Source: Akkermansiaceae bacterium
GTDB lineage: Bacteria > Verrucomicrobiota > Verrucomicrobiia > Verrucomicrobiales > Akkermansiaceae
Direction of reading: 5' to 3'
NCBI GenBank assembly: GCA_025354565.1
Contig: JANXMQ010000247.1
Span: 5,880-69,879, forward strand
Length of the DNA stretch: 64,000 bases
In this document: in pieces, positions 1,820 through 64,000 of the stretch
Layout: every line of letters starts with the position of its first letter
How positions within the stretch are numbered: position 1 is the first letter of the stretch
Notes under the pieces: generated by a model
Database searches by the model: none
The model's input: only the letters and a program-made list of their open reading frames with translations
Told to the model about the DNA's origin: nothing
Position numbers and translations under genes: made by a program

Positions 1820-2348
1820 GGTGTGGGCTGGGGAATACGGTGATGTTGCTGGATTCGAAGCGGTCTACAAAAACGGAGGCATGTTTTGGCTCCAGTTTCG
1901 GGAAATCCGTGCCGGGCTTCACGTCAGTGGTCACGGTGAGGCCGCGCACGAAGATCATGCGTTCACTCTCGGGGAGCATACGGACGTGGAGTTTTACATC
2001 GAGGGCGGTGGATAACTCGGCGAGGGTATCGATGGTGAAGTTTGCGGGTTGTTCTTCATCGAGAATCTTGCCGATATACTGGCGTGATTTGCCGAGTTTG
2101 GCGGCGAGGGTGTTGCGTTTGAGTCCAGTGGCTTCCATGGCACGGAGAATATCCTCAACAATGAGGCCCTTGGAGATTTCCGCGAGGAAGGCCGGATCGG
2201 CGCGGAGTACCTCCGCAGCTTTGGCCAGTCCGGCCAGTTCCTTGGCGGAGGCTTGGTGTGTGTTCGCAAAGAGCGCGGCGATGTCGTCGGGAAGTGAGGT
2301 TGCGGCAGGCGATTCGGCCACTACTCGTTTTTCAGTTATGCTGCTCAT
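1794..2348 (-). CDS. HTH (XRE-family) antitoxin, HigA-like, with a long C-terminal extension
   Basis: The helix-turn-helix GLKRNTLAAKLGKSRQYIGKILDEEQPANFTIDTLAELSTALDVKLHV is followed by about 55 extra residues. It overlaps the toxin gene by 17 nt and the chaperone gene by 26 nt. Confidence 0.7.
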   Translation of the reverse strand: MSSITEKRVVAESPAATSLPDDIAALFANTHQASAKELAGLAKAAEVLRADPAFLAEISKGLIVEDILRAMEATGLKRNTLAAKLGKSRQYIGKILDEEQPANFTIDTLAELSTALDVKLHVRMLPESERMIFVRGLTVTTDVKPGTDFPKLEPKHASVFVDRFESSNITVFPSPHHERTRLSS

Positions 2349-2748
2349 AGATTTGTTTCAGTTGGTGACAGTTTTCAAAAGCTTGATCCTGCTCTTTCCT
2401 GCTACTCTTGGTTTTCCAGTAGGTGTTGGTGCAAATCACGGCGGCTTGGTTTTTTTCGCAGTAGAAGAACATCAGCCGGGCGCTGCCTTTGTCGGCACGG
2501 ATTTCATAGACTCCGTCGTGTTTCGGGTTGCTGCTCTTCTTGACCTTTTTCTCATCTCGGATCCGATCCACTTGGCCGATGATCGATAGGATTTTCATGA
2601 TTTTCTTGTAGTCGCCCGGTGATTTCCGCTCCCACTCCACCAAGGGACCGAGCACGAAGTTGCGGCCGTTGATCTGAAGAACGCGGATCTGCCAGACGAG
2701 CTGCTGGTGATTCGTGACACCGGGAATCTGGATGAGCTCGACAGCCAT
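2332..2748 (-). CDS. RelE/HigB-superfamily toxin (phage Gp49-like / DUF891-like)
   Basis: The motif GVYEIRADKGSARLMFFYCEKNQAAVICTNTYWKTKSSRKEQDQAFENC matches the pattern of Gp49/HigB-type toxins (xxyElR...yRilyf...ivlthgfxKK). It sits upstream of an HTH antitoxin. Confidence 0.65.
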   Translation of the reverse strand: MAVELIQIPGVTNHQQLVWQIRVLQINGRNFVLGPLVEWERKSPGDYKKIMKILSIIGQVDRIRDEKKVKKSSNPKHDGVYEIRADKGSARLMFFYCEKNQAAVICTNTYWKTKSSRKEQDQAFENCHQLKQIYEQHN

Positions 2749-2918
2749 GTCAACCTATGGGTTTACATTTTATCTCTTGCCTGCTCGCGCAGAATGCAGC
2801 CAATTGATGCCGCTGACCCTGGAATTCCCTCTCCCGCCCTTCGCGACGGTGACTGGAGCCAGGGGTTTCTTTATTTTCGGCCTGTGGCAGAAATCCCTCA
2901 CGAAAACCCTCACCCCGG

Positions 2919-2939
2919 CCCTCTCCCACGGGGAGAGGG
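2919..2939. repeat. Perfect 9-bp hairpin inside a low-complexity intergenic repeat
   Basis: The sequence is ccctctccc-acg-gggagaggg, located 19 nt downstream of the hsdM stop. The surrounding sequence yields the artefact ORF 2750..2968 (PLPVGEGRGEG...). Confidence 0.5.
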
Positions 2940-2957
2940 GGAATTGCCACCAAACAT

Positions 2958-4274
2958 TTAGAGCGCATAGCCGAGTCCTTTCAAGTTGGCTTTGATGGCG
3001 GATTCGAGTTTGGCGGACTCTGCGAATTGGTTGGCTAGCTCAGCGCTGAGACGGGACATTTTCACGTCGAATCCTTCACCGTCGTCTTCGATGTCTTCGG
3101 CTCCGACGTAGCGGCCCGGTGTGAGGACGTGACCGTGTGAGATGATTTCCGTGAGATTTGCGGATTTCGAGAAGCCCGGCGCATCGGAATACGATGCGAA
3201 GTTGCTAGTTTTCAGTTTTGAGTTTTCAGCGGAAGAACGCCATTCGCGGAAAGCTCCGGCGATTTTCTCAACGTCGTCTGGAGCGAAATCACGCAGCACC
3301 CTGTCCTTCATAAAGCCTAGCTTGCGGGCGTCGATGAAGAGCGTTTCGCCGCGGCGGTCGCGTAGGGCGGCGGCACCAGGCCGGGAGCGCTTGGCTTTGT
3401 TTTTTGTGAGGAACCAGATGCAGGCGGGAATCTGGGTATTGGTGAAGAGCTGGCCGGGCAGGGCGACCATGCACTCGACGAGATCTGCCTCGATCAAGGC
3501 GCGGCGGATGTCGCCTTCGCCGCTGGAATTCGAACTCTTCGAGCCATTGGTGAGCAGCAGCGCCATCGAGCCATTCGGCGCGAGGTGGTGGAGCATGTGC
3601 TGGACCCACGCGAAGTTGGCATTCCCCTGCGGCGGCGTGCCGTATTTCCAGCGGGCGTCGCCCTCCAGCTTGCCGTCCCACCATTCTTTAATGTTGAAGG
3701 GCGGGTTTATCCTCCCGTTGGGACGATCTGCGGGGTGGCTTCGCGGGAGTGAACGCGCTGCCGCGCTGGGCAGTGCCATCACGAAGTCGGCGCGGAGGTC
3801 CGGGTGCTGGTCGCGGATGAAGGTGTCCGCCGGTTCCTTGCCGAAGTCGAAGTCGATGCTGCGGATGGCCATGGGAGAGGAAGAATTTTTAACCGCAAAG
3901 GCGCAAAGGTCGCCAAGGGACACAGAGGAAGACTTTGAACGGGAGGTTTTGGGGCCGTGGCCGAGGATGTCCTTCGCGTGAAGGTCCGCGTGCTGGAACG
4001 GGATGTTGGCGATGAGGTCGATGAGCCCCGCGAGGTTCGCCGGATCGATCTGGAGCTGGGTGTAGTTCTTGTTGAGGACGTTCTTGAGCTTCGGGTTCTC
4101 CTTCTCCACCGCTTCCAGCGCGTCGTCGATGAACTTGCCGGTGGAAGTGAATTTGTAAGAGTGGGCGAGACGCCCACGCTCCTTGATCTCCGTCCCCGCC
4201 GGGAGCTTGTCGGCAGCGGTCCAGAGCTTTTTGTCGAGCTCGCGGAGGAAGATCTGGGAATCGGAGGGGGGCAT
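2958..4274 (-). CDS. hsdM: Type I R-M methyltransferase HsdM-like, apparently degenerate (SAM-binding core missing)
   Basis: Clear HsdM blocks are present: LDKKLWTAADKL, EKENPKLKNVL, DILG, AIRSIDFDFGKEPADTF, NPPFN (3696-3707), RWKYGTPPQGNANFAWVQHMLHHLAPNG, GEGDIRRALIEADLVECMVALPGQLFTNTQIP, LFIDARKLG and LTPGRYVG. No DPxCGSGG-type motif I is present. About 100 residues between DILG and AIRSID are replaced by a 29-aa filler (3873-3962). Confidence 0.7.
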   Translation of the reverse strand: MPPSDSQIFLRELDKKLWTAADKLPAGTEIKERGRLAHSYKFTSTGKFIDDALEAVEKENPKLKNVLNKNYTQLQIDPANLAGLIDLIANIPFQHADLHAKDILGHGPKTSRSKSSSVSLGDLCAFAVKNSSSPMAIRSIDFDFGKEPADTFIRDQHPDLRADFVMALPSAAARSLPRSHPADRPNGRINPPFNIKEWWDGKLEGDARWKYGTPPQGNANFAWVQHMLHHLAPNGSMALLLTNGSKSSNSSGEGDIRRALIEADLVECMVALPGQLFTNTQIPACIWFLTKNKAKRSRPGAAALRDRRGETLFIDARKLGFMKDRVLRDFAPDDVEKIAGAFREWRSSAENSKLKTSNFASYSDAPGFSKSANLTEIISHGHVLTPGRYVGAEDIEDDGEGFDVKMSRLSAELANQFAESAKLESAIKANLKGLGYAL

Positions 4275-27438: not shown

Positions 27439-28242
27439 CTAAAGCGCGAAGGTGATATTGACGATGACTGCAATCGTCTTCCCGCCCACGAGCGATGGGG
27501 TAGGAGAAAATGTCCAAGCGTGGGCGGCGTCCACGGCAGCTTGGTCGAGCGCTGCGTTGCCGCTGCCATGATAAAGACGGGTCGAAGCGGCGGAACCATT
27601 GCCTCGGACCATGACCAGCACGGCGACTTTGCCGGATATTTTCGCTGCCTTAGCGGCGGCAGGATAGCGCGGTGGCGGTGCGTGGAGTAGCTTCGGCGGC
27701 GGGATTGGCGTGTCACGTTTCGCGGGCCGGTCAGGGTTGGATGATTTCCCACTTCCGGCTTTCACGGCGGGGCGACCGGGTGAAACGGAGCGTGCGGAAG
27801 AACCCGTCGGCGCAGCGGTAGGCGCGGCTTCTGGCCCAGCATCCTGAGTAACTACTGGTGTTAGAATGGGCGTGCTCGCGGGTAGATCCAGATCCATGTG
27901 GATCACGTTCAATGGCATCGTCACACGAAGCGGAGCGGCGGCGAAAGCAGGCCGTGATTGAGCTTGTGAAGAGGGCTGCGGTTCGCTCACACGCGGGCTG
28001 CGGACTGGCGTGGACTCGAAATCCGCAGACGCCTCTGTGGCAACTGGGCTTGTCGCCCCCCCCCCCTTCAAATTCACAAAAGGTAACCAGAAGGCGGCGG
28101 CGATCAAACAGGCGTGGATGCCGAGCGAAACCAATAGACCAGCCCTGCCAGTATGGGATTTCTTCGCCAGCAAGCGCAAGAGCTCCGGGCTGGGGGGCAC
28201 CGGAGTTCGCGGGACGTCAGGCTTTTTCAGCAAAGAATTCAC
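27439..28242 (-). CDS. tonB: TonB-family energy transducer (C-terminal TonB domain)
   Basis: It has an N-terminal TM helix (LLVSLGIHACLIAAAFWLPF), a Pro-rich linker, and the C-terminal segment PPPRYPAAAKAAKISGKVAVLVMVRGNGSA...AAVDAAHAWTFSP. Confidence 0.75.
   Translation of the reverse strand: MNSLLKKPDVPRTPVPPSPELLRLLAKKSHTGRAGLLVSLGIHACLIAAAFWLPFVNLKGGGATSPVATEASADFESTPVRSPRVSEPQPSSQAQSRPAFAAAPLRVTMPLNVIHMDLDLPASTPILTPVVTQDAGPEAAPTAAPTGSSARSVSPGRPAVKAGSGKSSNPDRPAKRDTPIPPPKLLHAPPPRYPAAAKAAKISGKVAVLVMVRGNGSAASTRLYHGSGNAALDQAAVDAAHAWTFSPTPSLVGGKTIAVIVNITFAL
28056..28066. repeat. Homopolymer tract C11 (G11 on the coding strand of the tonB-like gene)
   Basis: The plus strand reads tgtcg-ccccccccccc-ttcaa. 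On the minus strand it reads aat ttg aag ggg ggg ggg gcg (NLKGGGA). Confidence 0.95.
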
Positions 28243-56893: not shown

Positions 56894-57144
56894 GGGGATT
56901 GCGCAGCGTTTCTCACGCCGCGGCAGAGTAGATGGGTTTCCGCCACGGGCTAGGAGAAAAATCCGGTTTTATGGACGATTTTTCTGAGTTTCCGACGGCT
57001 AGGATTTTTCCGGGAAAATCGTTTGACCGGAGTCATGGGCAGTGCTTTTTCCGGCGTCGCGATACAACAGGCGGCCCGATTGAGCTTCCCTCTGGGTTTT
57101 AGGGTTTTTTCCCGGGGATCATCAATCGGACAGCTTTCTCATGA

Positions 57145-57330
57145 GAGCCTCAAAATTCGAGCGCATCCGTCGTCGATGCTAGGGAGAAATCCAATCGCTG
57201 TCTGTCCCACGGAAGGGCGATGAGCAGGGCAGCTACATTGGAAATCGCTAACAATCAAAGCACCCTCCATGCAGAAGTCCGGGCATTCTTCGAGGACGCG
57301 GCCAACCTCCCCTACGCCCGCAAAAAAGGC
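57145..57330 (+). pseudogene. Decayed ISAs1-family transposase remnant
   Basis: The frame-1 translation reads ...VVDAREKSNRCLSHGRAMSRAATLEIANNQSTLHAEVRAFFEDA. It retains the EKSNE- and KxNQxTLhxxvxxFF-like blocks of ISAs1 (H-repeat) transposases, but the sequence between them is deleted. No intact DDE domain is present. Confidence 0.4.
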
Positions 57331-57902
57331 GGCACCGTCGCTCACTATCTGGAGGATGAACCTCACAGCGATGAAACGCCGAATGCGGTCGAACTCTCGC
57401 CCGCGCAGGTGGAGGCCTTTGCCATCCGGTTTTGTCCCGCCACGAGAGACGAGGCGATGTGCGCCGAGACCAATCCCGAGACCTCCATGGAAATCGCTCA
57501 CCTTCCCCACGAACTGGGAATCAACATGGTTGATGCTTCTAATTTTGAGGAGGTCAAGAAAGCCATCACGATGGCCCCCCGGTGAAATTTGATGTCGTGC
57601 GCCAAGTCCGGGTGTTCGAGCCCTATCTTCAGTAGGTGGAAATGAAGCTCACCGGTCCCGCCAGCAAGTGGTCGAATACTACCTACCCCTTGCATGTCTT
57701 GGAAAGCGTGTTCCCCAGCACCGACAAGCTGATCCGCGGGATGTCCTTGGAGGTCACCTACAAGGAGGCAACTTTCGAAACTTTGAATCGCCCGGACTTT
57801 CTTGAATCTGTCAAAAAGGCCTATCCAAGAGTCATTTGGAACAAGGCATACCAAGAATTCCGAGCAGCGGGAGAAAAGAAATCCCGTCACGCCTGACCAC
57901 TA

Positions 57903-58778
57903 TCAAGCCAGCTTCAAATCCGGTGCTTCCGGCAGGCGGGCGAAATCCACCACCTTGTCGGTTTCAAACTCGCCGACAAAGACGAAGTCATCGTTGAGTA
58001 GCTCCTTCTGGATCTGAAGGAATGCGTTCCGCCGGAGTCCGGCTTCCTCATTCGGTTCACGGGCGGTGACGAGGCAGCGGTCGGGACGGAAACCTAGCTG
58101 CCTAAGCCGTTTTATCTTCTGAGTCCACTCGTCGCCGTGGTTGAAGATGTCGGTGGAAGTGGGAAGGTCGAAGTTCAACGGACGGAGGGCACGGTCTGCG
58201 CGGCGGTCGCCGGTGAGATGGGCCAGCGTGAAAATGACGTGGTATTCCTCCGGCCCGATTTTCACATCCTTGGCGTACGCCGGGAGTATTTTGGCATCTT
58301 CGAGTACGCGACGCAGGGCTTTTGCCATTTGCTGTTCGGCAGCCTGATGAATTGTAAAGCCGTCTTGGTCGATGAATCGCGCCTTCAGCTTCTCCAGCAC
58401 CGTTTTCATGTCCTCAGCCATTCTCCGGCCCTTCACAGGAAAGCAGAAAACCCCCTCACGCGGGCTGGTGATCGCGGCGAAGAGACCATTCTCTTTTTCA
58501 CGGAAGGGCGGGAAAAGCGGCACTTCCACGCCGAGACCGTTCACCGCTTGGCGAATTCCATCGAATTCCGCTTCAAGCTTGTTTCTCGCCTCGCGATAGA
58601 GCGTCTTTTCGATGGCCGGAAACATCCCGAGCACGCGCCCGGTTTTCTGGGCTTTTTGAAGGATGAAATCAAAGTGCCGTGCGGCAACGTCCAGCGCGAC
58701 CACACCAATAGTCACGAATTCCTCCGTCTCCGCGTAGGGACGGAAGCCAATCGTGGCAAAATCGTAGGTGCGTTTCAT
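57903..58778 (-). CDS. DUF3037-domain protein with a C-terminal extension of about 165 aa
   Basis: The N-terminus MKRTYDFATIGFRPYAETEEFVTIGVVALDVAARHFDFIL matches the DUF3037 N-terminal pattern as I remember it (Y.ysv.rf.P....eEf.NiGvvl). ATG 58778 forms an ATGA overlap with the kinase stop. Confidence 0.6.
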   Translation of the reverse strand: MKRTYDFATIGFRPYAETEEFVTIGVVALDVAARHFDFILQKAQKTGRVLGMFPAIEKTLYREARNKLEAEFDGIRQAVNGLGVEVPLFPPFREKENGLFAAITSPREGVFCFPVKGRRMAEDMKTVLEKLKARFIDQDGFTIHQAAEQQMAKALRRVLEDAKILPAYAKDVKIGPEEYHVIFTLAHLTGDRRADRALRPLNFDLPTSTDIFNHGDEWTQKIKRLRQLGFRPDRCLVTAREPNEEAGLRRNAFLQIQKELLNDDFVFVGEFETDKVVDFARLPEAPDLKLA

Positions 58779-59530
58779 GGTGCGGTTAAAGTGGGAAGGG
58801 ACCAGAAGTCCGGGTCGGTTTGATGGGAAGATAGCACAGCCTTCAAGCCGTCTTTGTCCAGCGTGCAACGTGGATCTCCGTAAGAATCGATCAACCATTC
58901 CTCGGGGAGTTCATTCCAAAGCCGGTCGATCCACGCTTCGCCGGTTGCCAGCCACGCGGTCATTTCCACCCGCTTGTCGGTGTCCCATGCGCTCAAATGC
59001 CCCCGGAGGGCGTGGAACCGCCAGAAATGAGTCGCACCGAAGTCATCGTCGAAAGCATTGTCGTGGTCGAAAACCACCACCCGCCCCGGATCGAGTTCCC
59101 AAAGCAGATTGGGGTTTCCTCCGGTTTCCGTGAGAACGCGGTCGCAATTCCGAATCCACCAGTCGAAAAGCAGAATCAGGGAAAGCACACCGTCGGGATC
59201 TTCCCGGACGAACGCCAACGCCAGTCGCTCCGCCGGTTCCACCCGCCGCGAGCCGAATGCGATGCCATCACCGAGTTCCCGCTCGAACTCCTCGTTTCCC
59301 GCCACCAGATCCTTGGAGATGCGAACCTGCCGAATCTCCGCCGCTTGCAGCCCCATCTCCTGAGCCAGCCTTCCTGCGATCCACTCTTTCACCAGTTGCG
59401 TGTATCCGGCATTCTTGAGTTTCACAAAATAGCGAGCGTCATCGTCGCCGAGGCAACGGAAAGGGCGGCTGATGCCGTTCCCTTCGTCGGTGCGGCCTTC
59501 AATGGCAATGATGTCGATCATGTCTGGCAC
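58775..59530 (-). CDS. HipA-like (PI3/4-kinase-fold) protein kinase, short stand-alone form
   Basis: It has the Lys motif ARYFVKLKN and the catalytic/Mg block LFDWWIRNCDRVLTETGGNPNLLWELDPGRVVVFDHDNAF (N-x-DR ... N-x-N ... DHD). The start is GTG 59530 or ATG 59521. Confidence 0.6.
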   Translation of the reverse strand: MPDMIDIIAIEGRTDEGNGISRPFRCLGDDDARYFVKLKNAGYTQLVKEWIAGRLAQEMGLQAAEIRQVRISKDLVAGNEEFERELGDGIAFGSRRVEPAERLALAFVREDPDGVLSLILLFDWWIRNCDRVLTETGGNPNLLWELDPGRVVVFDHDNAFDDDFGATHFWRFHALRGHLSAWDTDKRVEMTAWLATGEAWIDRLWNELPEEWLIDSYGDPRCTLDKDGLKAVLSSHQTDPDFWSLPTLTAP

Positions 59531-59543
59531 ATTTCAAAAACTG

Positions 59544-60836
59544 CTATCGATTTCCCTTGGACGAATTGCATGACTGACACATTAACGCAGCGTTATCGAG
59601 TCGAGACTTTCCGCCTTTGCTGTGAGGATCGATATGGTCGATGGTGAAGTCGTCCCAAGAAAGTTTTCGGGAGCAATCCTTGCATTTTCTCTCAGCAGAA
59701 GTGCCCCAGATGACCCGCCGCTGTTCCGCAGAAAATCCGCGTTGCGAATCTTTCGTTGCAAAGAGGCTTCCGAGGATCTCCCGCAAGTGACCTTCCCGTT
59801 TGCGGCGTTGGCTCACGTCATCGCTGGCCTGTGATGTCGTCAGGAGGTAATCTCGATAGATTTCCTCATCGGGTTGGCTAGCGTTCATTTTCTTTCGGTT
59901 CTCACGAACTTGGTCCACGTTGACCGCGAACGCTTCAAGAAGATCCCAAGCAAGTTTGTTGCGACGAGGGTTAGTCAGAATCAAGCCCTCCAACTCGAAC
60001 TTGCCGACCAGAACAGCTAACGAATAGAAATCCGCAAGGTTCCGAAGCCTTGTTGTTTTCAGATTTGGGAACATCTTATGCACGCGGTTCAGGCTGGTCG
60101 TCACCTGAGCGGATAGCTTTGTTGTCACGGCAGGCGTGAACGAATTACTCACCATGACGCGGTCGAGCGCTGTCTTCCTGTTGATGACATCCCCTTGATG
60201 CGCCGACAGCATCAACTCGCACATCAGCTCAACGTGTTTCATGCGGCTGACTTGGGTGCTGCTCATGACACCCATGCTGATCAGCAGCTTCTCAAACTTT
60301 TTAGCCATCCTGTTGGCCGCTTTGAGAAAGTTGCTATTGAAGTATTTCGCGTTTTTCTTTTCCTGAGGGGTCAACGCCTTTCCGGTCGAATTGATTCGCA
60401 CAAAGACATCGATAATATCTCCAATATCGCCATCGACTTCGATAACCGAAAGCCGGTAACCGGAAATGAGATGCTGTTGCTGCTTTTTCTTTAATTTCCG
60501 CCAGTCGATCAATTCGACCTGATCACTTCCCGGCATTTGGCCCTTCAACTCGAAGCGTCCTTTCATCTCGCCCGTAAACATCAGAATCGATTCAATCCGT
60601 TGCTTTCCGTCGATCACATCGTAATAGATGTGCCCCTCATGCTCCCGCCGATAGAAGAACACTGCGGGAAGCGGATAATTGCGTAGGATGCTCTCAATGA
60701 GTTTTTGTCGGTCGCCAACTTTCCAAACAGACTGCCTCTGGAAACCAGGATTCAAATTCAGAAACCCGCTCTTATGCAGGTTGATGAGATCCGTTACAGT
60801 TCGGGTTTCGGGGCGGTGTGTCAGTGACGTTTTCAT
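59544..60836 (-). CDS. DUF262 (ParB/GmrSD N-terminal-like) + C-terminal HNH nuclease protein
   Basis: The N-terminal block is FLNLNPGFQRQSVWKVGDRQKLIESILRNYPLPAVFFY...YYDVIDGKQRIESI (DGQQR-type motif). The C-terminal block is CKDCSRKLSWDDFTIDHIDPHSKGGKSRLDNAALMCQSCNSSKGN. The start was set to MKTSL (60836). The upstream 108 codons of ORF 59544..61160 overlap hsdS. Confidence 0.8.
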   Translation of the reverse strand: MKTSLTHRPETRTVTDLINLHKSGFLNLNPGFQRQSVWKVGDRQKLIESILRNYPLPAVFFYRREHEGHIYYDVIDGKQRIESILMFTGEMKGRFELKGQMPGSDQVELIDWRKLKKKQQQHLISGYRLSVIEVDGDIGDIIDVFVRINSTGKALTPQEKKNAKYFNSNFLKAANRMAKKFEKLLISMGVMSSTQVSRMKHVELMCELMLSAHQGDVINRKTALDRVMVSNSFTPAVTTKLSAQVTTSLNRVHKMFPNLKTTRLRNLADFYSLAVLVGKFELEGLILTNPRRNKLAWDLLEAFAVNVDQVRENRKKMNASQPDEEIYRDYLLTTSQASDDVSQRRKREGHLREILGSLFATKDSQRGFSAEQRRVIWGTSAERKCKDCSRKLSWDDFTIDHIDPHSKGGKSRLDNAALMCQSCNSSKGNR

Positions 60837-60843
60837 CTTTGGC

Positions 60844-62250
60844 TTATCGTTTTCCTGCTTTGGATTTGCGGCTACTTCCCCCCCCCTCGGGGACACCTGA
60901 GCGAAGGCGTTCCAACATCGCCGCCGCCGGTTCGTCGTTGGGGTCTTGGGGGACGAGTTCGCCGCGGAAGGCTTTGGTGAGAGTGGCCGGGGTGAGGCGC
61001 TCGACGGTCTTTCGCGCGGTGGCGAGGCGGGCTTCGATCCGGTCGGCGAAGGCGAACAGGTCTTCGACCCGGCGGACGATTTCTTGTTGCTCGGATAGAG
61101 GTGGGAGAAAAACGGGAGATTCGCGAAGCAACCCAAGCGAAGCGAATTTTTGATTTCCACCCCGAAGTCTCGGGTCCAACCATTGGCTAAACAGCGGCCC
61201 TTGTAGCCAGTAAAACATATATTGAGGCAAGACTGTCCCTGGGTTATTCTTAAACAGTCCCACGTTTTTAATGCTGAACTCCCGCCTGGTTTCCACTATG
61301 CATATATGCCCCACGCTACCGATCATGGAGAATAGAACGTCACCAATGTCAACCTTTGATCGTTTTGAAATTTCACGGTGATCATCTTGGGAAATTTGTT
61401 GAGCGCCTTCAAAGTCAATGCCTGCTGGGCGTATGTTCTTTGAAGTAACCAACGGTATTCCAGATTTCACATACTTTGGTGTGTCATGCGTGCCATCTCG
61501 GACTGATGAGCAAACTGCATCAGCACGAGTTACTTTCCATGTAGACGGAAGCGTGAGTGTTGCGTCTTCAAATTCAATTTCGACATTATGCAACTCGTCA
61601 TTCGCCCCATTCGTCATTCTCCATTCCTCCGTTAGGCGGCCACTCGTGGCGGCGGCGAGGACGGATTGGCGGAAGCGTTTGAGGAGGGCGGGGACGCGGT
61701 CGAGGCGGGCGCGGCAGGCGTCCACCCGACCCAGCAGCACCTCCAGCTTGTCCGCGATCCGCTTTTGCTCGGCGAGGGGGGCGAGGATGAAGGGCGCCGC
61801 TCTTCCTGCTTCGGTGCCAAGGCGTGGCATATTCAGACCGTGACTGACGGCTGTGACGTAGTCGAGAAAAGTCGGGTGTTTCAACCAGTAGAAGAGATAA
61901 CGGTTTTCAAGCGTGCCGTTACCTCGAAGCGGGATGATTTCAGTTGTGCAATAGCCGGGTTGGTCAGCGATGAGGATCTTGTTCAGGTAGGGACGGAGCT
62001 TTCCATAGAGGACATCCCCAGTTTCAAAGCGGTTCTTTGTGCTCTTCGATTTTCTTTCCGCAAATGTAACACGAGAAAGCAACTGGGATGTGTCTTTCTC
62101 GATGTCCTCAAGCTCTAGAATCCACGACTTGGCTGAGATTTTGCTGGGTTCGGCTTTCCGGGTCTTTCCGTAATCAACGACATCGCCGAGTGCGCATGAC
62201 TGCCACCCCTCCGGCAATTCGTCATTCGTCATTCGGATCTCGCCATTCAT
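60844..62250 (-). CDS. hsdS: Type I R-M specificity subunit HsdS
   Basis: The N-terminus is ELPEGWQSCALGDVVDYGKT. The central helix is PLAEQKRIADKLEVLLGRVDACRARLDRVPALLKRFRQSVLAAATSG. The distal helix is PPLSEQQEIVRRVEDLFAFADRIEARLATARKTVERLTPATLTKAFRGELV. Both target-recognition domains have low GC. Confidence 0.9.
   Translation of the reverse strand: MNGEIRMTNDELPEGWQSCALGDVVDYGKTRKAEPSKISAKSWILELEDIEKDTSQLLSRVTFAERKSKSTKNRFETGDVLYGKLRPYLNKILIADQPGYCTTEIIPLRGNGTLENRYLFYWLKHPTFLDYVTAVSHGLNMPRLGTEAGRAAPFILAPLAEQKRIADKLEVLLGRVDACRARLDRVPALLKRFRQSVLAAATSGRLTEEWRMTNGANDELHNVEIEFEDATLTLPSTWKVTRADAVCSSVRDGTHDTPKYVKSGIPLVTSKNIRPAGIDFEGAQQISQDDHREISKRSKVDIGDVLFSMIGSVGHICIVETRREFSIKNVGLFKNNPGTVLPQYMFYWLQGPLFSQWLDPRLRGGNQKFASLGLLRESPVFLPPLSEQQEIVRRVEDLFAFADRIEARLATARKTVERLTPATLTKAFRGELVPQDPNDEPAAAMLERLRSGVPEGGGSSRKSKAGKR
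60878..60886. repeat. Homopolymer tract C9 (G9 on the coding strand) 11 codons before the hsdS stop
   Basis: The minus strand reads gtc ccc gag ggg ggg gga agt (VPEGGGS). The tract lies 42 nt upstream of the DUF262/HNH start codon. Confidence 0.95.
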
Positions 62251-62846
62251 TACCTTTTCAGCTTTTGGATCACGGAATCGAGTTCAAAGGACGCCCAGCA
62301 GACTTTGGCGAGTTCGTGGCCGTGGCCGCGCCAGGTGGCGTTGAGGACTTTGAAGTTCTTGGACTGGAGTCGGTCCACGGCTGGGATGAAATCGCGGTCG
62401 CTGCTGAGGAGGAGGGCGATATCGTAGGCACCTTCCCAAGAGAGGCTGAGCATATCCGTGACGATCCGGGAATCGACGGTTTTCTCAGCAGCTCGGCCGA
62501 GGTCGGCCCTACAACTCGGGCAGGTGGCGAAATCCGTTCCGCAGGCGCGGCAGTGGATGGTGTGTTTCTTCCAATGACGTTCGACAGCGAAGACACGGAT
62601 ACCAGGTTGCTTGTCGAGAAAGTTGTGGCGCCAGCCTTTGAGTTTGGCTTCGCGACCGGGCTCGTAGGAGGCATAGACGCGGGTTTCTTCCAGTGACAGG
62701 TTTCCCAAACCGGCGTTGCCAAGCAAGGTTTGAGCCTCCTGTGCGAGAACGAGCGGAAGTCGTGACCAATCGCATTGCGCGCCACCGGAGCGGTCGTTCC
62801 AGTTGAGAGAGAAGTTCCAGAAGTCGATGAAGAGGCGGAGTTTCAT
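62250..62846 (-). CDS. NYN-domain (LabA/PIN-like RNase fold) protein with an inserted Cys4 zinc ribbon
   Basis: The NYN blocks are MKLRLFIDFWNF and VDSRIVTDMLSLSWEGAYDIALLLSSDRDFIPAVDRLQSKNFKV. The zinc-ribbon insert is HCRACGTDFATCPSCRADL. Its TAA stop overlaps the hsdS ATG by 1 nt (TAATG). Confidence 0.75.
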   Translation of the reverse strand: MKLRLFIDFWNFSLNWNDRSGGAQCDWSRLPLVLAQEAQTLLGNAGLGNLSLEETRVYASYEPGREAKLKGWRHNFLDKQPGIRVFAVERHWKKHTIHCRACGTDFATCPSCRADLGRAAEKTVDSRIVTDMLSLSWEGAYDIALLLSSDRDFIPAVDRLQSKNFKVLNATWRGHGHELAKVCWASFELDSVIQKLKR

Positions 62847-62849
62847 GAG

Positions 62850-62885
62850 GGTAAAAAATACGGGGAGCACCTTGCAGTGCTCCCC
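62850..62885 (-). terminator. Terminator-like hairpin between hsdM and the NYN gene
   Basis: The minus strand reads GGGGAGCAC-TGCAAG-GTGCTCCCC (perfect 9-bp stem, 62862-62885), followed by GTATTTTTTACCCTC and then the NYN ATG. Confidence 0.6.
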
Positions 62886-63000
62886 GGGAAGTTCATACGT
62901 GCCGCAAATTGCGACACGGGAATGTCATGGACAAAGAATGCCACGGGAGCCCAGATGGTCAAGGAGGATTTTGGAGGATTGGCCATTCGGATTTCGTCAT

Positions 63001-64000
63001 TCACACTCCCACCTCCTCCACTTCCTCCTCTAGTTCTGTCAGAATTCCCCGCAGATCTTCCATGATGGATTCCATTTCCTCCATGGCGCTGGCGGCGAGG
63101 ATGGCGGGTTCCGGGAGGTCGGCGCTGGATTCGGCGCTGTCGTCCTTGAGCCAGGAGATGTCGAGGGAGTCGTCGCGTCCGGCGATCCACTCGCGGGTGA
63201 ACTTGCGGAAGCGGCCGGATTCGCCGGTGTCCTTGCGTTTTTTGAGGGCGGCGGGGCCACCTAACGGATCGTTGCCGTAGGCTTTCTCGAAATCGGAAAA
63301 ATGCTCGCGGGTGAGCGGGGTGCGTTTGCCGAATTGCGGCATGTTGGCGCGGAGGTCATAGACCCAGACTTCCTTGGTGTTGCCCTTCTCGGTCTTGCCA
63401 CGGGTGAAGAAGAGGACGTTGGTTTTCACGCCTTGGGCGTAGAAGATGCCGGTGGGCAGGCGGAGGATGGTGTGAAGGTTGCACTTGTTCATCAGGTCGC
63501 GGCGGATGTCCTTGCCAACGCCGGATTCGAACAGGACATTGTCCGGCAGCACGACAGCGGCGCGGCCACCGGGCAGGAGGTAGCGATAGATGTGCTGGAC
63601 GAAGCAGAATTGCTTGTTGCTGGTGGGATAGGTGAAGTCGGTGCGGGTGGGCAGTCCGCCGCCCTTCTTGGTGCCGAAGGGTGGATTGGTGAGGATGAGC
63701 GTGGCCTTGGGCAGGGCAGCGCCGTCTTCGGATAGAGTGTCGCCATAACGGACGCCGTTCTCGATGCCGTGGAGCATGAGGTTCATGAGCGCGAGGCGGT
63801 GGGTGTCCTGCACGTGTTCCATGCCGCAGAAGGTGCCGCTGCGGTATTTCTTCTGCTTGGCTTCGGTGAGGGAATCGAAGTCGTTGTGGGTCCGGAGGTA
63901 GTGGTTCGCCGCGATGTGGAAACCGCAAGTGCCGGCGGCGGGGTCCTGGATGATGTCGTCGAGCGTGGGCTTCATCACGTGGACCATGCTGTCGATGAGG
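63001..64000 (-). CDS. hsdM: Type I R-M methyltransferase HsdM (5' end beyond the right edge)
   Basis: Motif I is IQDPAAGTCGF and motif IV is LTNPPFG. The blocks FVQHIYRYLLPGGRAAVVLPDNVLF and ILRLPTGIFYAQGVKTNVLFF are also present. The frame stays open to position 64000 (...LIDSMVHVMKPTL). Confidence 0.9.
   Translation of the reverse strand, partial: LIDSMVHVMKPTLDDIIQDPAAGTCGFHIAANHYLRTHNDFDSLTEAKQKKYRSGTFCGMEHVQDTHRLALMNLMLHGIENGVRYGDTLSEDGAALPKATLILTNPPFGTKKGGGLPTRTDFTYPTSNKQFCFVQHIYRYLLPGGRAAVVLPDNVLFESGVGKDIRRDLMNKCNLHTILRLPTGIFYAQGVKTNVLFFTRGKTEKGNTKEVWVYDLRANMPQFGKRTPLTREHFSDFEKAYGNDPLGGPAALKKRKDTGESGRFRKFTREWIAGRDDSLDISWLKDDSAESSADLPEPAILAASAMEEMESIMEDLRGILTELEEEVEEVGV

What the first reader, a model, noticed from the sequence alone, without database searches (positions are those of the whole stretch)
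60834..60890. G9 tract at the 3' end of hsdS: loss of one G would fuse HsdS in frame to the DUF262-HNH nuclease
The coding strand reads gtc ccc gag ggg ggg gga agt agc ... cga taa. Eight nt after the stop codon comes the atg (60836) of the nuclease gene. The nuclease reading frame is open for 108 codons upstream of its ATG and runs straight through the G tract (..SPRGGEVAANPKQENDKPK-M..). I checked codon by codon. Deleting one G gives V P E G G E V A A N P K Q E N D K P K M K T S L ... with no stop. That would be an HsdS-DUF262-HNH fusion of about 900 aa. Homopolymer slippage is a known route to phase variation of type I hsd genes in other bacteria. Here it would toggle between separate proteins and a specificity-subunit-tethered nuclease.
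Basis: partly seen in the sequence, partly recalled or inferred. Interest (0 to 1): 0.65.

Follow-up and report, generated by a model that had tools for sequence, protein, structure and literature searches.

The report
G9 run in hsdS tail
A run of nine G's sits near the end of a restriction-system specificity gene, and losing one G would fuse it to the next nuclease gene, but nothing I could test shows the cell uses this as a switch, so it looks like an ordinary two-gene junction.

Summary
A G9 run (window 60878-60886, minus strand) lies 40 nt before the hsdS stop. A GmrSD-like DUF262-HNH nuclease gene starts 7 nt after that stop in the +1 frame. G8 or G11 would give a 901/902-aa HsdS-nuclease fusion. 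G7 or G10 only trims the HsdS tail.

The idea that this is a working phase-variation switch is not supported.
- All four metagenome runs holding the locus have G9 in their contigs.
- Only the G9 protein exists in a 15-billion-protein collection.
- None of 160 related nuclease loci has a run of 8 or more at the junction.
- The nuclease is a stand-alone ~430-aa protein in all 120 closest homologues listed, and its two nearest relatives (92%, 77%) are not next to hsdS.
- The tract lies after both target-recognition domains, unlike known phase-variable hsdS genes.
- The G9 frame encodes the Lys/Arg-rich tail typical of this HsdS family.
- The long open upstream frame comes from a GC-rich, stop-poor stretch.

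Some doubt remains. Long G/C runs are otherwise depleted in this window, G9 meets the published length criterion, and natural HsdS-ATPase fusions exist in this HsdS family. Read-level data were not available.

The parts
60878..60886 (-). G9 homopolymer (C9 on the + strand). It encodes Gly-Gly-Gly (gaG GGG GGG GGa) in the C-terminal tail of HsdS, 40 nt before the hsdS stop.
60844..62250 (-). hsdS, the type I R-M specificity subunit, 468 aa. It has two target-recognition domains, the conserved C-terminal region ...AFRGELVPQDPNDEPA..., and a basic tail ...GGGSSRKSKAGKR*.
   Evidence: Pfam PF01420 with 2 stretches; PADLOC Specificity_I at 1.8e-100; tail comparison
60837..60843 (-). 7-nt spacer (gccaaag) between the hsdS TAA and the nuclease ATG. 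There is no terminator or promoter-like site here.
59544..60836 (-). GmrSD-like nuclease, 430 aa: an N-terminal DUF262/GmrSD_N domain (motifs FQRQ, DGKQR, FVRIN) plus a C-terminal HNH domain with four Cys. The start MKTSLTHRPET matches the N-termini of homologues.
   Evidence: Pfam PF03235 3.3e-24, PF01844 5e-13; PADLOC NsnA and PD-T4-2_A; alignment A1
60837..60881 (-). Last ~45 nt of hsdS plus the spacer. This stretch is also present, at 80-90% identity, upstream of the 92%-identical nuclease in L162, where there is no hsdS. Homology ends at the position of the G run.
60844..61160 (-). GC-rich (61%) 3' part of hsdS that is stop-poor in four of six frames. This is the source of the long open frame upstream of the nuclease ATG.
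62250..62870 (-). NYN/LabA-like gene inserted between hsdM and hsdS. Its stop overlaps the hsdS start (ATGA).
   Evidence: Pfam PF01936 2.1e-11
63001..64000 (-). hsdM (type I methyltransferase), cut by the window end. A strong terminator-like hairpin follows it at 62886-62861.
   Evidence: Pfam PF02384 2.2e-59; PADLOC MTase_I 3.9e-136
57903..59530 (-). HipA_2 kinase-like gene (58775..59530) and DUF3037 gene (57903..58898) downstream of the nuclease. The same pair follows the 77%-identical nuclease in L163.

Best explanation
This is an ordinary type I restriction-modification operon in a Verrucomicrobiota metagenome-assembled genome. A stand-alone GmrSD-like (DUF262-HNH) nuclease gene is embedded directly downstream of hsdS. 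The two genes are tightly packed, with a TAA, 7 nt, then ATG, and they make two separate proteins. The G9 run encodes three glycines in the flexible, Lys/Arg-rich C-terminal tail of HsdS, after everything needed for DNA recognition and assembly. That is a place where a homopolymer is easily tolerated. The run is real, and like any G9 it will occasionally slip. A -1 slip would give a 901-aa fusion and a +1 slip a slightly shorter HsdS. These are by-products of tight gene packing and a GC-rich, stop-poor sequence, not an evolved switch. Shown here: the anatomy, the frames, the domain identities, the lack of conservation, and G9 in all assemblies. Inferred: that the tail is disordered and tolerant, and that slippage products have no selected role.
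For: (1) G9 is the only allele seen. Contigs of all four runs carry it without indels at word depth 15-64x. Only the 468-aa G9 product is in the 15-billion-protein collection, and the G6, G7, G8, G10, G11 and G12 products are absent.

(2) The nuclease family is free-standing. More than 2,000 homologues were found, and the best 120 are 418-508 aa, none with a Methylase_S domain. Their N-termini coincide with the ATG at 60836.

(3) The two closest nuclease relatives (92%, 77%) follow an Mrr_cat gene or a small ORF, not hsdS.

(4) In 160 related loci no junction has a homopolymer of 8 or more. Where the nuclease does follow hsdS (L007, L021/L140, L083, L039, L155) the ORFs are separate, and two of them (L007, L021) have clear Shine-Dalgarno sequences of their own.

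(5) HsdS homologues lack the run. The only other GGG in a tail (P0219) is encoded ggc ggc ggc.

(6) The G9 frame gives ...SSRKSKAGKR*. This matches the family's basic tail and specifically P0205 ...KGRKAKAGKR*, with mostly synonymous codon differences. The G8 frame gives an acidic-containing, atypical sequence.

(7) TAA plus spacer plus ATG is conserved in the remnant upstream of the L162 nuclease.

(8) The open upstream frame is compositional. The last 317 nt of hsdS are 61% GC and stop-poor in 4 of 6 frames. An off-frame stays open for the 17 codons needed with probability about 0.6.

(9) The tract lies after both target-recognition domains. Published SSRs in hsdS lie between the target-recognition domains (PMC7383803).

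(10) GmrSD-like genes embedded in type I loci are a known arrangement, for example TgvAB and RloF (PMC11411939).
Against: - G/C runs of 7-8 are almost absent from the window (1 and 0), yet runs of 9 and 11 exist.
- The window holds 2 runs of 9 or more, against about 0.1-0.3 expected from 1.16 Mb of other loci.
- GGG is the rarest Gly codon.
- G9 meets the length criterion used to call hsd genes phase-variable (PMC7383803).
- About a quarter of HsdS homologues carry extra C-terminal domains. Two natural fusions of HsdS to the downstream defence ATPase exist. So a C-terminal fusion is not implausible as a working protein.
- Only assembled contigs were available, and these hide minority alleles. 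The longer G11 run also looked invariant, so the data may simply be blind to variation.
Confidence: 0.75

Rival explanations
1. The run is a true contingency locus. Slipped-strand mispairing toggles the cell between separate HsdS plus nuclease (G9) and an HsdS-nuclease fusion (G8/G11). The fusion would tether a GmrSD-like nuclease to the sequence-specific M2S methyltransferase core. This would be a nuclease version of the NgoAV and M. haemolytica 'extended HsdS' switches.
For: Frame arithmetic. Tract length of 9 or more. Long G runs are outliers in this genome and rare elsewhere. Precedents for one-G fusions at the 3' end of hsdS. HsdS tolerates C-terminal domains, and natural HsdS-ATPase fusions exist. 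An engineered EcoKI M-S fusion is functional (PMC3510504).
Against: No length variant in any assembly or protein collection. The tract is absent from all relatives. The nuclease is always stand-alone, and its nearest relatives are unlinked to hsdS. No HsdS-DUF262 fusion was found with the fusion as query. The tract is not between target-recognition domains. The G9 tail is conserved at the protein level. The organism is an environmental Verrucomicrobiota, not a host-adapted pathogen of the kind where such switches are documented.
Confidence: 0.1
2. The run tunes expression rather than creating a useful fusion. In G9, ribosomes terminate 7 nt before the nuclease ATG, which has no well-placed Shine-Dalgarno sequence, and so allows termination-reinitiation coupling. 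In G10 or G7 they stop about 27 nt earlier, which would lower nuclease translation. Slippage would then modulate nuclease dosage.
For: Stop positions in the simulated alleles. The only AGGA lies about 17-20 nt upstream of the ATG, whereas L007 and L021 have canonical SDs. No promoter or terminator-like site lies between the genes.
Against: Purely inferential. No variant alleles were seen. SD usage in this phylum was not examined. The same leader precedes the L162 nuclease without any upstream hsdS, so coupling is not required.
Confidence: 0.05
3. The tract length is an assembly or sequencing artefact, and the true sequence is G8 (a genuine fusion gene) or G10.
For: Homopolymers are error-prone. 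All the data come from one study, and runs X1/X3 and X2/X4 look like duplicates.
Against: Independent assemblies at 16x and 64x word depth, plus the deposited genome, all agree on G9. The G9 frame gives a family-typical tail ending at a conserved TAA. No fused homologue exists.
Confidence: 0.03

Closest known systems
NgoAV type I system of Neisseria gonorrhoeae (poly-G in hsdS1)
   Same: A poly-G run lies at the 3' end of an hsdS ORF, and loss of one G fuses it in frame to the next ORF (PMC9577141).
   Different: In NgoAV the downstream ORF is the second half of hsdS, so the switch changes methylation specificity. Tract length varies among sequenced strains. Here the downstream ORF is an unrelated nuclease with its own conserved start, HsdS is already complete, and no variation is seen.
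Mannheimia haemolytica / Fusobacterium nucleatum 'extended' phase-variable hsdS
   Same: A repeat tract follows a full-length two-domain HsdS and toggles a C-terminal extension (PMC7383803).
   Different: In those species the extension is a third target-recognition domain. The tract is conserved in the species with G10-G12 alleles, and methylation specificities have been determined for both the standard and the extended HsdS form. None of this is shown here.
Type I-embedded GmrSD-like restriction genes (TgvAB of Vibrio cholerae VPI-2; RloF of Campylobacter jejuni)
   Same: A DUF262-family nuclease gene sits inside a type I hsd operon. The proposed role is complementary defence against modified and unmodified DNA (PMC11411939, PMC4619093). 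About 10% of the 160 related loci here also carry hsd genes.
   Different: TgvAB is a two-protein system with a DUF1524 nuclease domain. The window protein is a single chain with a classical PF01844 HNH domain, and its function is untested.
Natural HsdS-AAA_15/AAA_21 ATPase fusions found here (P0274, P0348)
   Same: They belong to the same HsdS family. The defence gene that elsewhere lies just downstream of hsdS (L165-L167) is fused to the HsdS C-terminus through the basic tail.
   Different: These are fixed fusions without a homopolymer at the junction, and the partner is an ATPase, not DUF262-HNH.
PrrC anticodon nuclease held latent by EcoprrI (from my own knowledge, not checked here)
   Same: A nuclease encoded inside a type I hsd operon is physically associated with the R-M complex.
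   Different: The association is non-covalent, the target is tRNA, and no homopolymer or fusion is involved.
Engineered EcoKI HsdM-HsdS fusion
   Same: Removing a frameshift between adjacent type I genes gives a functional fused subunit (PMC3510504).
   Different: It is a laboratory construct that fuses M to S, not S to an accessory nuclease.

Membership tests
Phase-variable hsdS (simple-sequence-repeat type, as defined in PMC7383803) | Mononucleotide tract of at least 9 inside the ORF | tested here: met
   G9 at 60878-60886 inside hsdS; criterion quoted
Phase-variable hsdS (simple-sequence-repeat type, as defined in PMC7383803) | Tract lies between target-recognition domains, so that a frameshift changes the TRD content or specificity | tested here: not met
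   The tract lies after both Methylase_S domains and 27 residues past the conserved AFRGEL motif; literature statement
Phase-variable hsdS (simple-sequence-repeat type, as defined in PMC7383803) | Tract length differs among strains, samples or reads | tested here: inconclusive
   G9 in the contigs of four runs, and only the G9 protein on record. Only assembled contigs from one study were available, with no raw reads.
Phase-variable hsdS (simple-sequence-repeat type, as defined in PMC7383803) | Tract conserved in orthologous loci | tested here: not met
   No run of 8 or more at the junction in 160 nuclease loci. HsdS homologue tails lack it, and the P0219 GGG is encoded ggcggcggc.
Type I restriction-modification system | HsdM methyltransferase and a two-TRD HsdS encoded together | tested here: met
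   PF02384 2.2e-59; PF01420 with two stretches; PADLOC MTase_I and Specificity_I
Type I restriction-modification system | HsdR helicase-nuclease subunit | not testable with these tools
   No hsdR between 56,000 and 64,000. The window ends inside hsdM. Related operons of this HsdS family run hsdR-hsdM-hsdS, so hsdR would lie beyond the window end.
[quoted passage not shown] | N-terminal DUF262 (ParB/Srx-like) domain with QR, DGQQR and FxxxN motifs | tested here: met
   PF03235 3.3e-24. Invariant Q33-R34, D76-G77-K78-Q79-R80 (a DGKQR variant) and F145..N149 in alignment A1. Motif definitions.
[quoted passage not shown] | C-terminal DUF1524 (GmrD) His-Me finger domain | tested here: not met
   The C-terminus matches PF01844 HNH / PF14279 HNH_5 instead. 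It belongs to the same superfamily but a different family.
[quoted passage not shown] | Modification-dependent DNA cleavage | not testable with these tools
   Needs biochemistry or phage assays
Defence genes embedded in type I hsd operons (TgvAB/RloF-like arrangement) | Gene lies within or immediately after the hsd genes on the same strand, and the association recurs | tested here: met
   Order hsdM-NYN-hsdS-nuclease. 17 of 160 related loci have hsdS or hsdM within 4 kb, and 6 of them (five distinct arrangements; L140 duplicates L021) have the nuclease directly after hsdS.

The most novel reading that the evidence does not exclude
The G9 run is a working contingency locus in an environmental Verrucomicrobiota. 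Slippage to G8 would covalently attach a GmrSD-like HNH nuclease to the HsdS specificity subunit. A subpopulation would then have a nuclease delivered to the type I recognition sequence, or silenced by the methyltransferase core. That would be a reversible gene-fusion switch between two defence systems.
Probability: 0.07. Interest if true: 0.75.

Novelty: new member of a known kind. Interest (0 to 1): 0.28.

Why it matters
If the switch were real, it would be the first case of homopolymer slippage reversibly fusing a type I specificity subunit to an unrelated defence nuclease. It would also extend phase variation of R-M systems from host-adapted pathogens to free-living Verrucomicrobiota.

As the evidence stands, the locus is one more example of a GmrSD-like nuclease embedded in a type I operon. 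The practical lesson is that 'one indel would fuse two genes' is the expected state for tightly packed genes in GC-rich DNA, and is not evidence of function by itself.

The side observation may be the more useful lead. Downstream defence genes are sometimes truly fused to HsdS in this family (the HsdS-ATPase fusions), which bears on functional coupling between type I systems and their embedded genes.

Tried and rejected
(1) Read-level tract variation. Only Logan contigs exist for the four runs that hold the locus. They show G9 with no indel contig, and the same holds for the G11 run used as a control. The test therefore has little power.

(2) RNA evidence. No metatranscriptome holds the locus. 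RNA runs share only 8-12% of words, from conserved hsdS regions of other organisms.

(3) Exact look-up of the simulated G6-G12 products: none is on record.

(4) Search with the 901-aa fusion for natural HsdS-DUF262 fusions: none found, only HsdS-ATPase fusions. That search listed only proteins of about 495 aa or longer, so it did not re-list the nuclease-only hits.

(5) A family-wide poly-G in HsdS tails. The one other GGG tail is encoded ggcggcggc.

(6) Reading the last 45 nt of hsdS as merely the nuclease's own leader, with the tract as an insertion scar. I considered this because L162 shares the stretch without having an hsdS. I think it less likely than the reverse, that L162 keeps a remnant of an hsdS tail. 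The encoded RKSKAGKR* matches the P0205 tail with mostly synonymous differences. This is not settled.

(7) Classical -1 ribosomal frameshifting on G GGG GGG. That leads to the G10-like frame (truncation), not to the fusion, which needs the +1 frame.

(8) Rfam: no RNA family in 57,000-64,000.

(9) Cluster look-up of the TonB-like ORF to see tract variation in relatives failed, because my ORF start is not the called one.
Full report
**1. What is in the sequence**

On the minus strand, hsdS runs from 62250 to 60844 and encodes 468 aa. It ends ...gtc ccc gag ggg ggg gga agt agc cgc aaa tcc aaa gca gga aaa cga taa. Seven nucleotides (gccaaag) follow, then the ATG (60836) of a 430-aa ORF that runs to 59544.

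The homopolymer is C9 on the + strand at 60878-60886. Pfam and PADLOC confirm the identities:
- hsdS matches Methylase_S with two stretches, and Specificity_I at 1.8e-100.
- The downstream protein has GmrSD_N/DUF262 (3.3e-24) plus HNH (5e-13).

Simulating tract lengths gives the following:
- G8: a 901-aa fusion with the junction VPEGGEVAANPKQENDKPKMKTSL.
- G11: 902 aa.
- G10: HsdS ends at 459 aa (...GGGK*).
- G7: HsdS ends at 458 aa.
- G6: 467 aa.

Two details need adjusting. The stop-free stretch upstream of the ATG is 153 codons, and 108 is the distance to the first GTG. The fusion frame is the +1 frame of hsdS.

**2. Context**

The gene order on the minus strand is:
- hsdM (63001 to beyond the window end)
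- a terminator-like hairpin (62886-62861)
- an NYN gene (62870-62250, whose stop overlaps the hsdS start)
- hsdS
- the nuclease
- a HipA_2 kinase-like gene (59530-58775)
- a DUF3037 gene (58898-57903)
- sdhB and other housekeeping genes

No hsdR lies in the last 8 kb of the window. Related operons of this HsdS family run hsdR-hsdM-hsdS, so hsdR is expected beyond the window end. That is an inference.

Housekeeping proteins cluster at 90% identity or more with Verrucomicrobiota/Akkermansiaceae genome proteins. The locus is held by four rock/sediment metagenome runs of one study.

**3. Is the tract more than chance?**

Dinucleotide shuffles say no. They expect 1.5 +/- 1.6 nine-G words against 4 seen, and 11 of 100 shuffles reach 4.

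Shuffles ignore the fact that real coding DNA avoids long runs. In the window, G/C runs of length 5, 6, 7 and 8 occur 54, 12, 1 and 0 times. After that come single runs of 9 and 11. In 1.16 Mb of other bacterial loci fetched here, only five G/C runs reach 9, which is about 0.28 per 64 kb. GGG is the rarest Gly codon, at 10%.

So the run is an outlier. Both long runs in the window encode Gly-Gly-Gly in segments that look like flexible linkers: the HsdS tail, and a TonB-family protein just after its membrane anchor. These are places where in-frame slippage is harmless. That offers a neutral explanation, but it is an inference.

**4. Is the fusability more than chance?**

No. Only 17 codons separate the tract from the ATG. 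Off-frame stop frequency in this genome is 2.7-3.3%, so an off-frame stays open that far with probability about 0.6. Empirically, 61% of off-frame runs at gene 3' ends reach 17 codons.

The much longer open stretch reflects the last 317 nt of hsdS. These are 61% GC, against 49-55% for the rest of the gene, and they are stop-poor in four of six frames. It is not specific to the nuclease frame.

**5. Variation**

Contigs from all four runs (word depth about 16x and 64x) carry G9 with no indel contig and no break at the tract. X1/X3 and X2/X4 look like duplicates.

The 15-billion-protein collection holds the G9 product only. The exact G6, G7, G8, G10, G11 and G12 products are absent, and the 90% cluster has a single member.

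Contigs drop minority alleles, and the G11 control also looked fixed. So this is weak negative evidence. No RNA data exist.

**6. Comparative evidence on the nuclease side**

The nuclease belongs to a large family, with more than 2,000 hits at E<=1e-10. The best 120 are 418-508 aa and none carries Methylase_S. Their N-termini align with MKTSLTHRPET.

In 160 related loci from genomes and metagenomes:
- Upstream neighbours are highly diverse.
- The median open stretch upstream of the start is 10.5 codons.
- No junction has a homopolymer longer than 7.
- About 10% of loci carry hsd genes. In L007, L021/L140, L083, L039 and L155 the nuclease directly follows an hsdS, always as a separate ORF. Two of them (L007, L021) have a canonical Shine-Dalgarno sequence, and in L083 the ORFs overlap in an ATGA.

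The two closest relatives are not beside hsdS at all. The 92% relative (L162) follows a 172-aa ORF that is itself preceded by an Mrr_cat gene, and the 77% relative (L163) directly follows an Mrr_cat gene. L163 is also followed by HipA_2-DUF3037.

**7. Comparative evidence on the HsdS side**

After the conserved AFRGELVPQDPNDEPA motif, homologues have a 25-50-residue Lys/Arg/Ala/Pro-rich tail. The window's G9 frame gives such a tail, with 36 residues after the AFRGEL motif.

P0205 ends KGRKAKAGKR*, against SSRKSKAGKR* in the window. The codon differences are mostly synonymous: aag/aaa, gcg/gca, ggg/gga, cgc/cga. This argues that this frame has been under protein-level constraint.

The only other tail with GGG (P0219) is encoded ggc ggc ggc, and the closest HsdS homologue (69%) has no run.

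**8. The junction with L162**

The window and L162 share about 1.36 kb at roughly 90% identity. The shared block runs from about 45 nt upstream of the nuclease ATG, including cgaTAAgccaa..ATG, to 18 nt past the stop. Upstream homology stops at the position of the G run, where L162 reads ggatagg.

Two readings are possible. L162 may retain a remnant of an hsdS tail; I favour this because of the P0205 match. Alternatively, the window's HsdS tail may be read from the nuclease's leader. In both readings the stop codon and spacer are conserved, meaning two ORFs, and the tract itself is not.

**9. Comparison with known systems**

Poly-G phase variation of hsdS is real. In NgoAV, loss of one G at the 3' end of hsdS1 fuses it to hsdS2 and changes specificity, and tract length varies among strains. 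In M. haemolytica a G[n] run toggles a two-domain and a three-domain HsdS.

The survey that defined the class requires a mononucleotide run of 9 or more, which is met here. It reports that SSRs in hsdS lie between target-recognition domains, which is not met here.

GmrSD-like genes embedded in type I operons are also known: TgvAB and RloF. The window nuclease has the QR, DG(K)QR and FxxxN motifs of DUF262. It carries a PF01844 HNH domain instead of DUF1524, so it is a relative of canonical GmrSD rather than a member.

**10. What keeps the door open**

About a quarter of the 120 HsdS homologues have extra C-terminal domains of 75-190 aa. A search with the simulated fusion found two natural proteins in which HsdS is fused through its basic tail to an AAA_15/AAA_21 ATPase. 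These are P0274 (1037 aa, in an hsdR-hsdM-hsdS operon on a 329-kb contig) and P0348 (1118 aa). Neither has a homopolymer at the junction. The same kind of ATPase is a separate gene just downstream of hsdS in L165-L167.

So C-terminal fusion of HsdS to its downstream defence partner does occur in nature, though not for DUF262-HNH and not through a repeat tract. An engineered EcoKI M-S fusion is also functional.

**11. Verdict**

The tract and the frame arithmetic are real. The proposed switch is not supported by any line of evidence that could be tested, and most comparative tests go against it. Read-level variation remains untested.

I put about 0.75 on an incidental homopolymer in a tolerant tail of an ordinary two-gene junction. 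I put about 0.1 on a true phase-variable fusion, and small probabilities on expression tuning or a length artefact. Interest is low to moderate.

Noticed in passing
window 28056-28066 (within ORF 27439..28242, minus strand): There is a second and longer homopolymer: G11 on the coding strand of a TonB-family protein (TIGR01352 C-terminal domain), at codons 59-63 (..NLKGGGATS..). A -1 slip stops the protein at aa 84 and a +1 slip at aa 170. By position it is a more classical on/off phase-variation candidate than the hsdS run. It is invariant in the contigs of all four runs.
   Followed up: partly
L168 4001-7114 (P0274) and L169 2733-6089 (P0348); compare L165 3385-4329, L166 3706-4650 and L167 1942-3183: Natural fusions of an HsdS of this family to an AAA_15/AAA_21 (OLD/SMC-like) ATPase, joined through the basic HsdS tail. 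In other operons the same kind of ATPase is a separate gene immediately downstream of hsdS, with a 4-nt overlap in L165 and L166. This fusion/fission pattern suggests a physical link between type I complexes and this embedded ATPase.
   Followed up: partly
HsdS homologues P0122, P0130, P0144, P0163, P0180, P0192 and others: Roughly a quarter of the 120 closest HsdS homologues carry an extra C-terminal domain of about 75-190 aa after the basic tail. At least two recurring sequence types appear...SFxELRExxxxDYExLxxxxFxLL... and ...KSRxDDDVKGxPYL...FYKQLAWEV.... Their function is unknown.
   Followed up: no
window 59526-60881 versus L162 about 1880-3237: A nuclease block of about 1.36 kb is shared at roughly 90% identity between two different contexts. 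Its sharp homology ends lie about 45 nt before the ATG and 18 nt after the stop. In L162 a C7 run sits a few nt past the right-hand break, and in the window the G9 run sits at the left-hand break. This may be coincidence or a trace of how the block moves.
   Followed up: partly
window 57903-59530; L163 5355-6982: A HipA_2 kinase-like gene and a DUF3037 gene (PADLOC candidates PDC-M66A/B) follow the nuclease both here and next to the 77%-identical nuclease in L163. In L163 a primase-like gene (D5_N/DUF5906) and an HTH_17 gene lie nearby, which suggests a mobile defence island.
   Followed up: no
window 62861-62886 (minus strand) and 62250-62870: A strong terminator-like hairpin (11-bp stem with 8 GC pairs, then a T-run) lies between hsdM and an NYN/LabA-like gene. 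That gene is inserted between hsdM and hsdS, and its stop overlaps the hsdS start. In relatives other small genes occupy the same slot, for example a PIN gene in L169 and a 110-aa ORF in L165.
   Followed up: no
window 2958-4274 (minus strand): A 438-aa ORF has a weak hsdM-like match (TIGR00497, 8.3e-15, well below the cutoff). It may be a second DNA methyltransferase in the window.
   Followed up: no
runs X1-X4: X1/X3 and X2/X4 give contigs of identical or near-identical lengths and depths although they are labelled rock and sediment metagenomes. They are probably the same libraries deposited twice, so the four runs amount to two independent samples.
   Followed up: no
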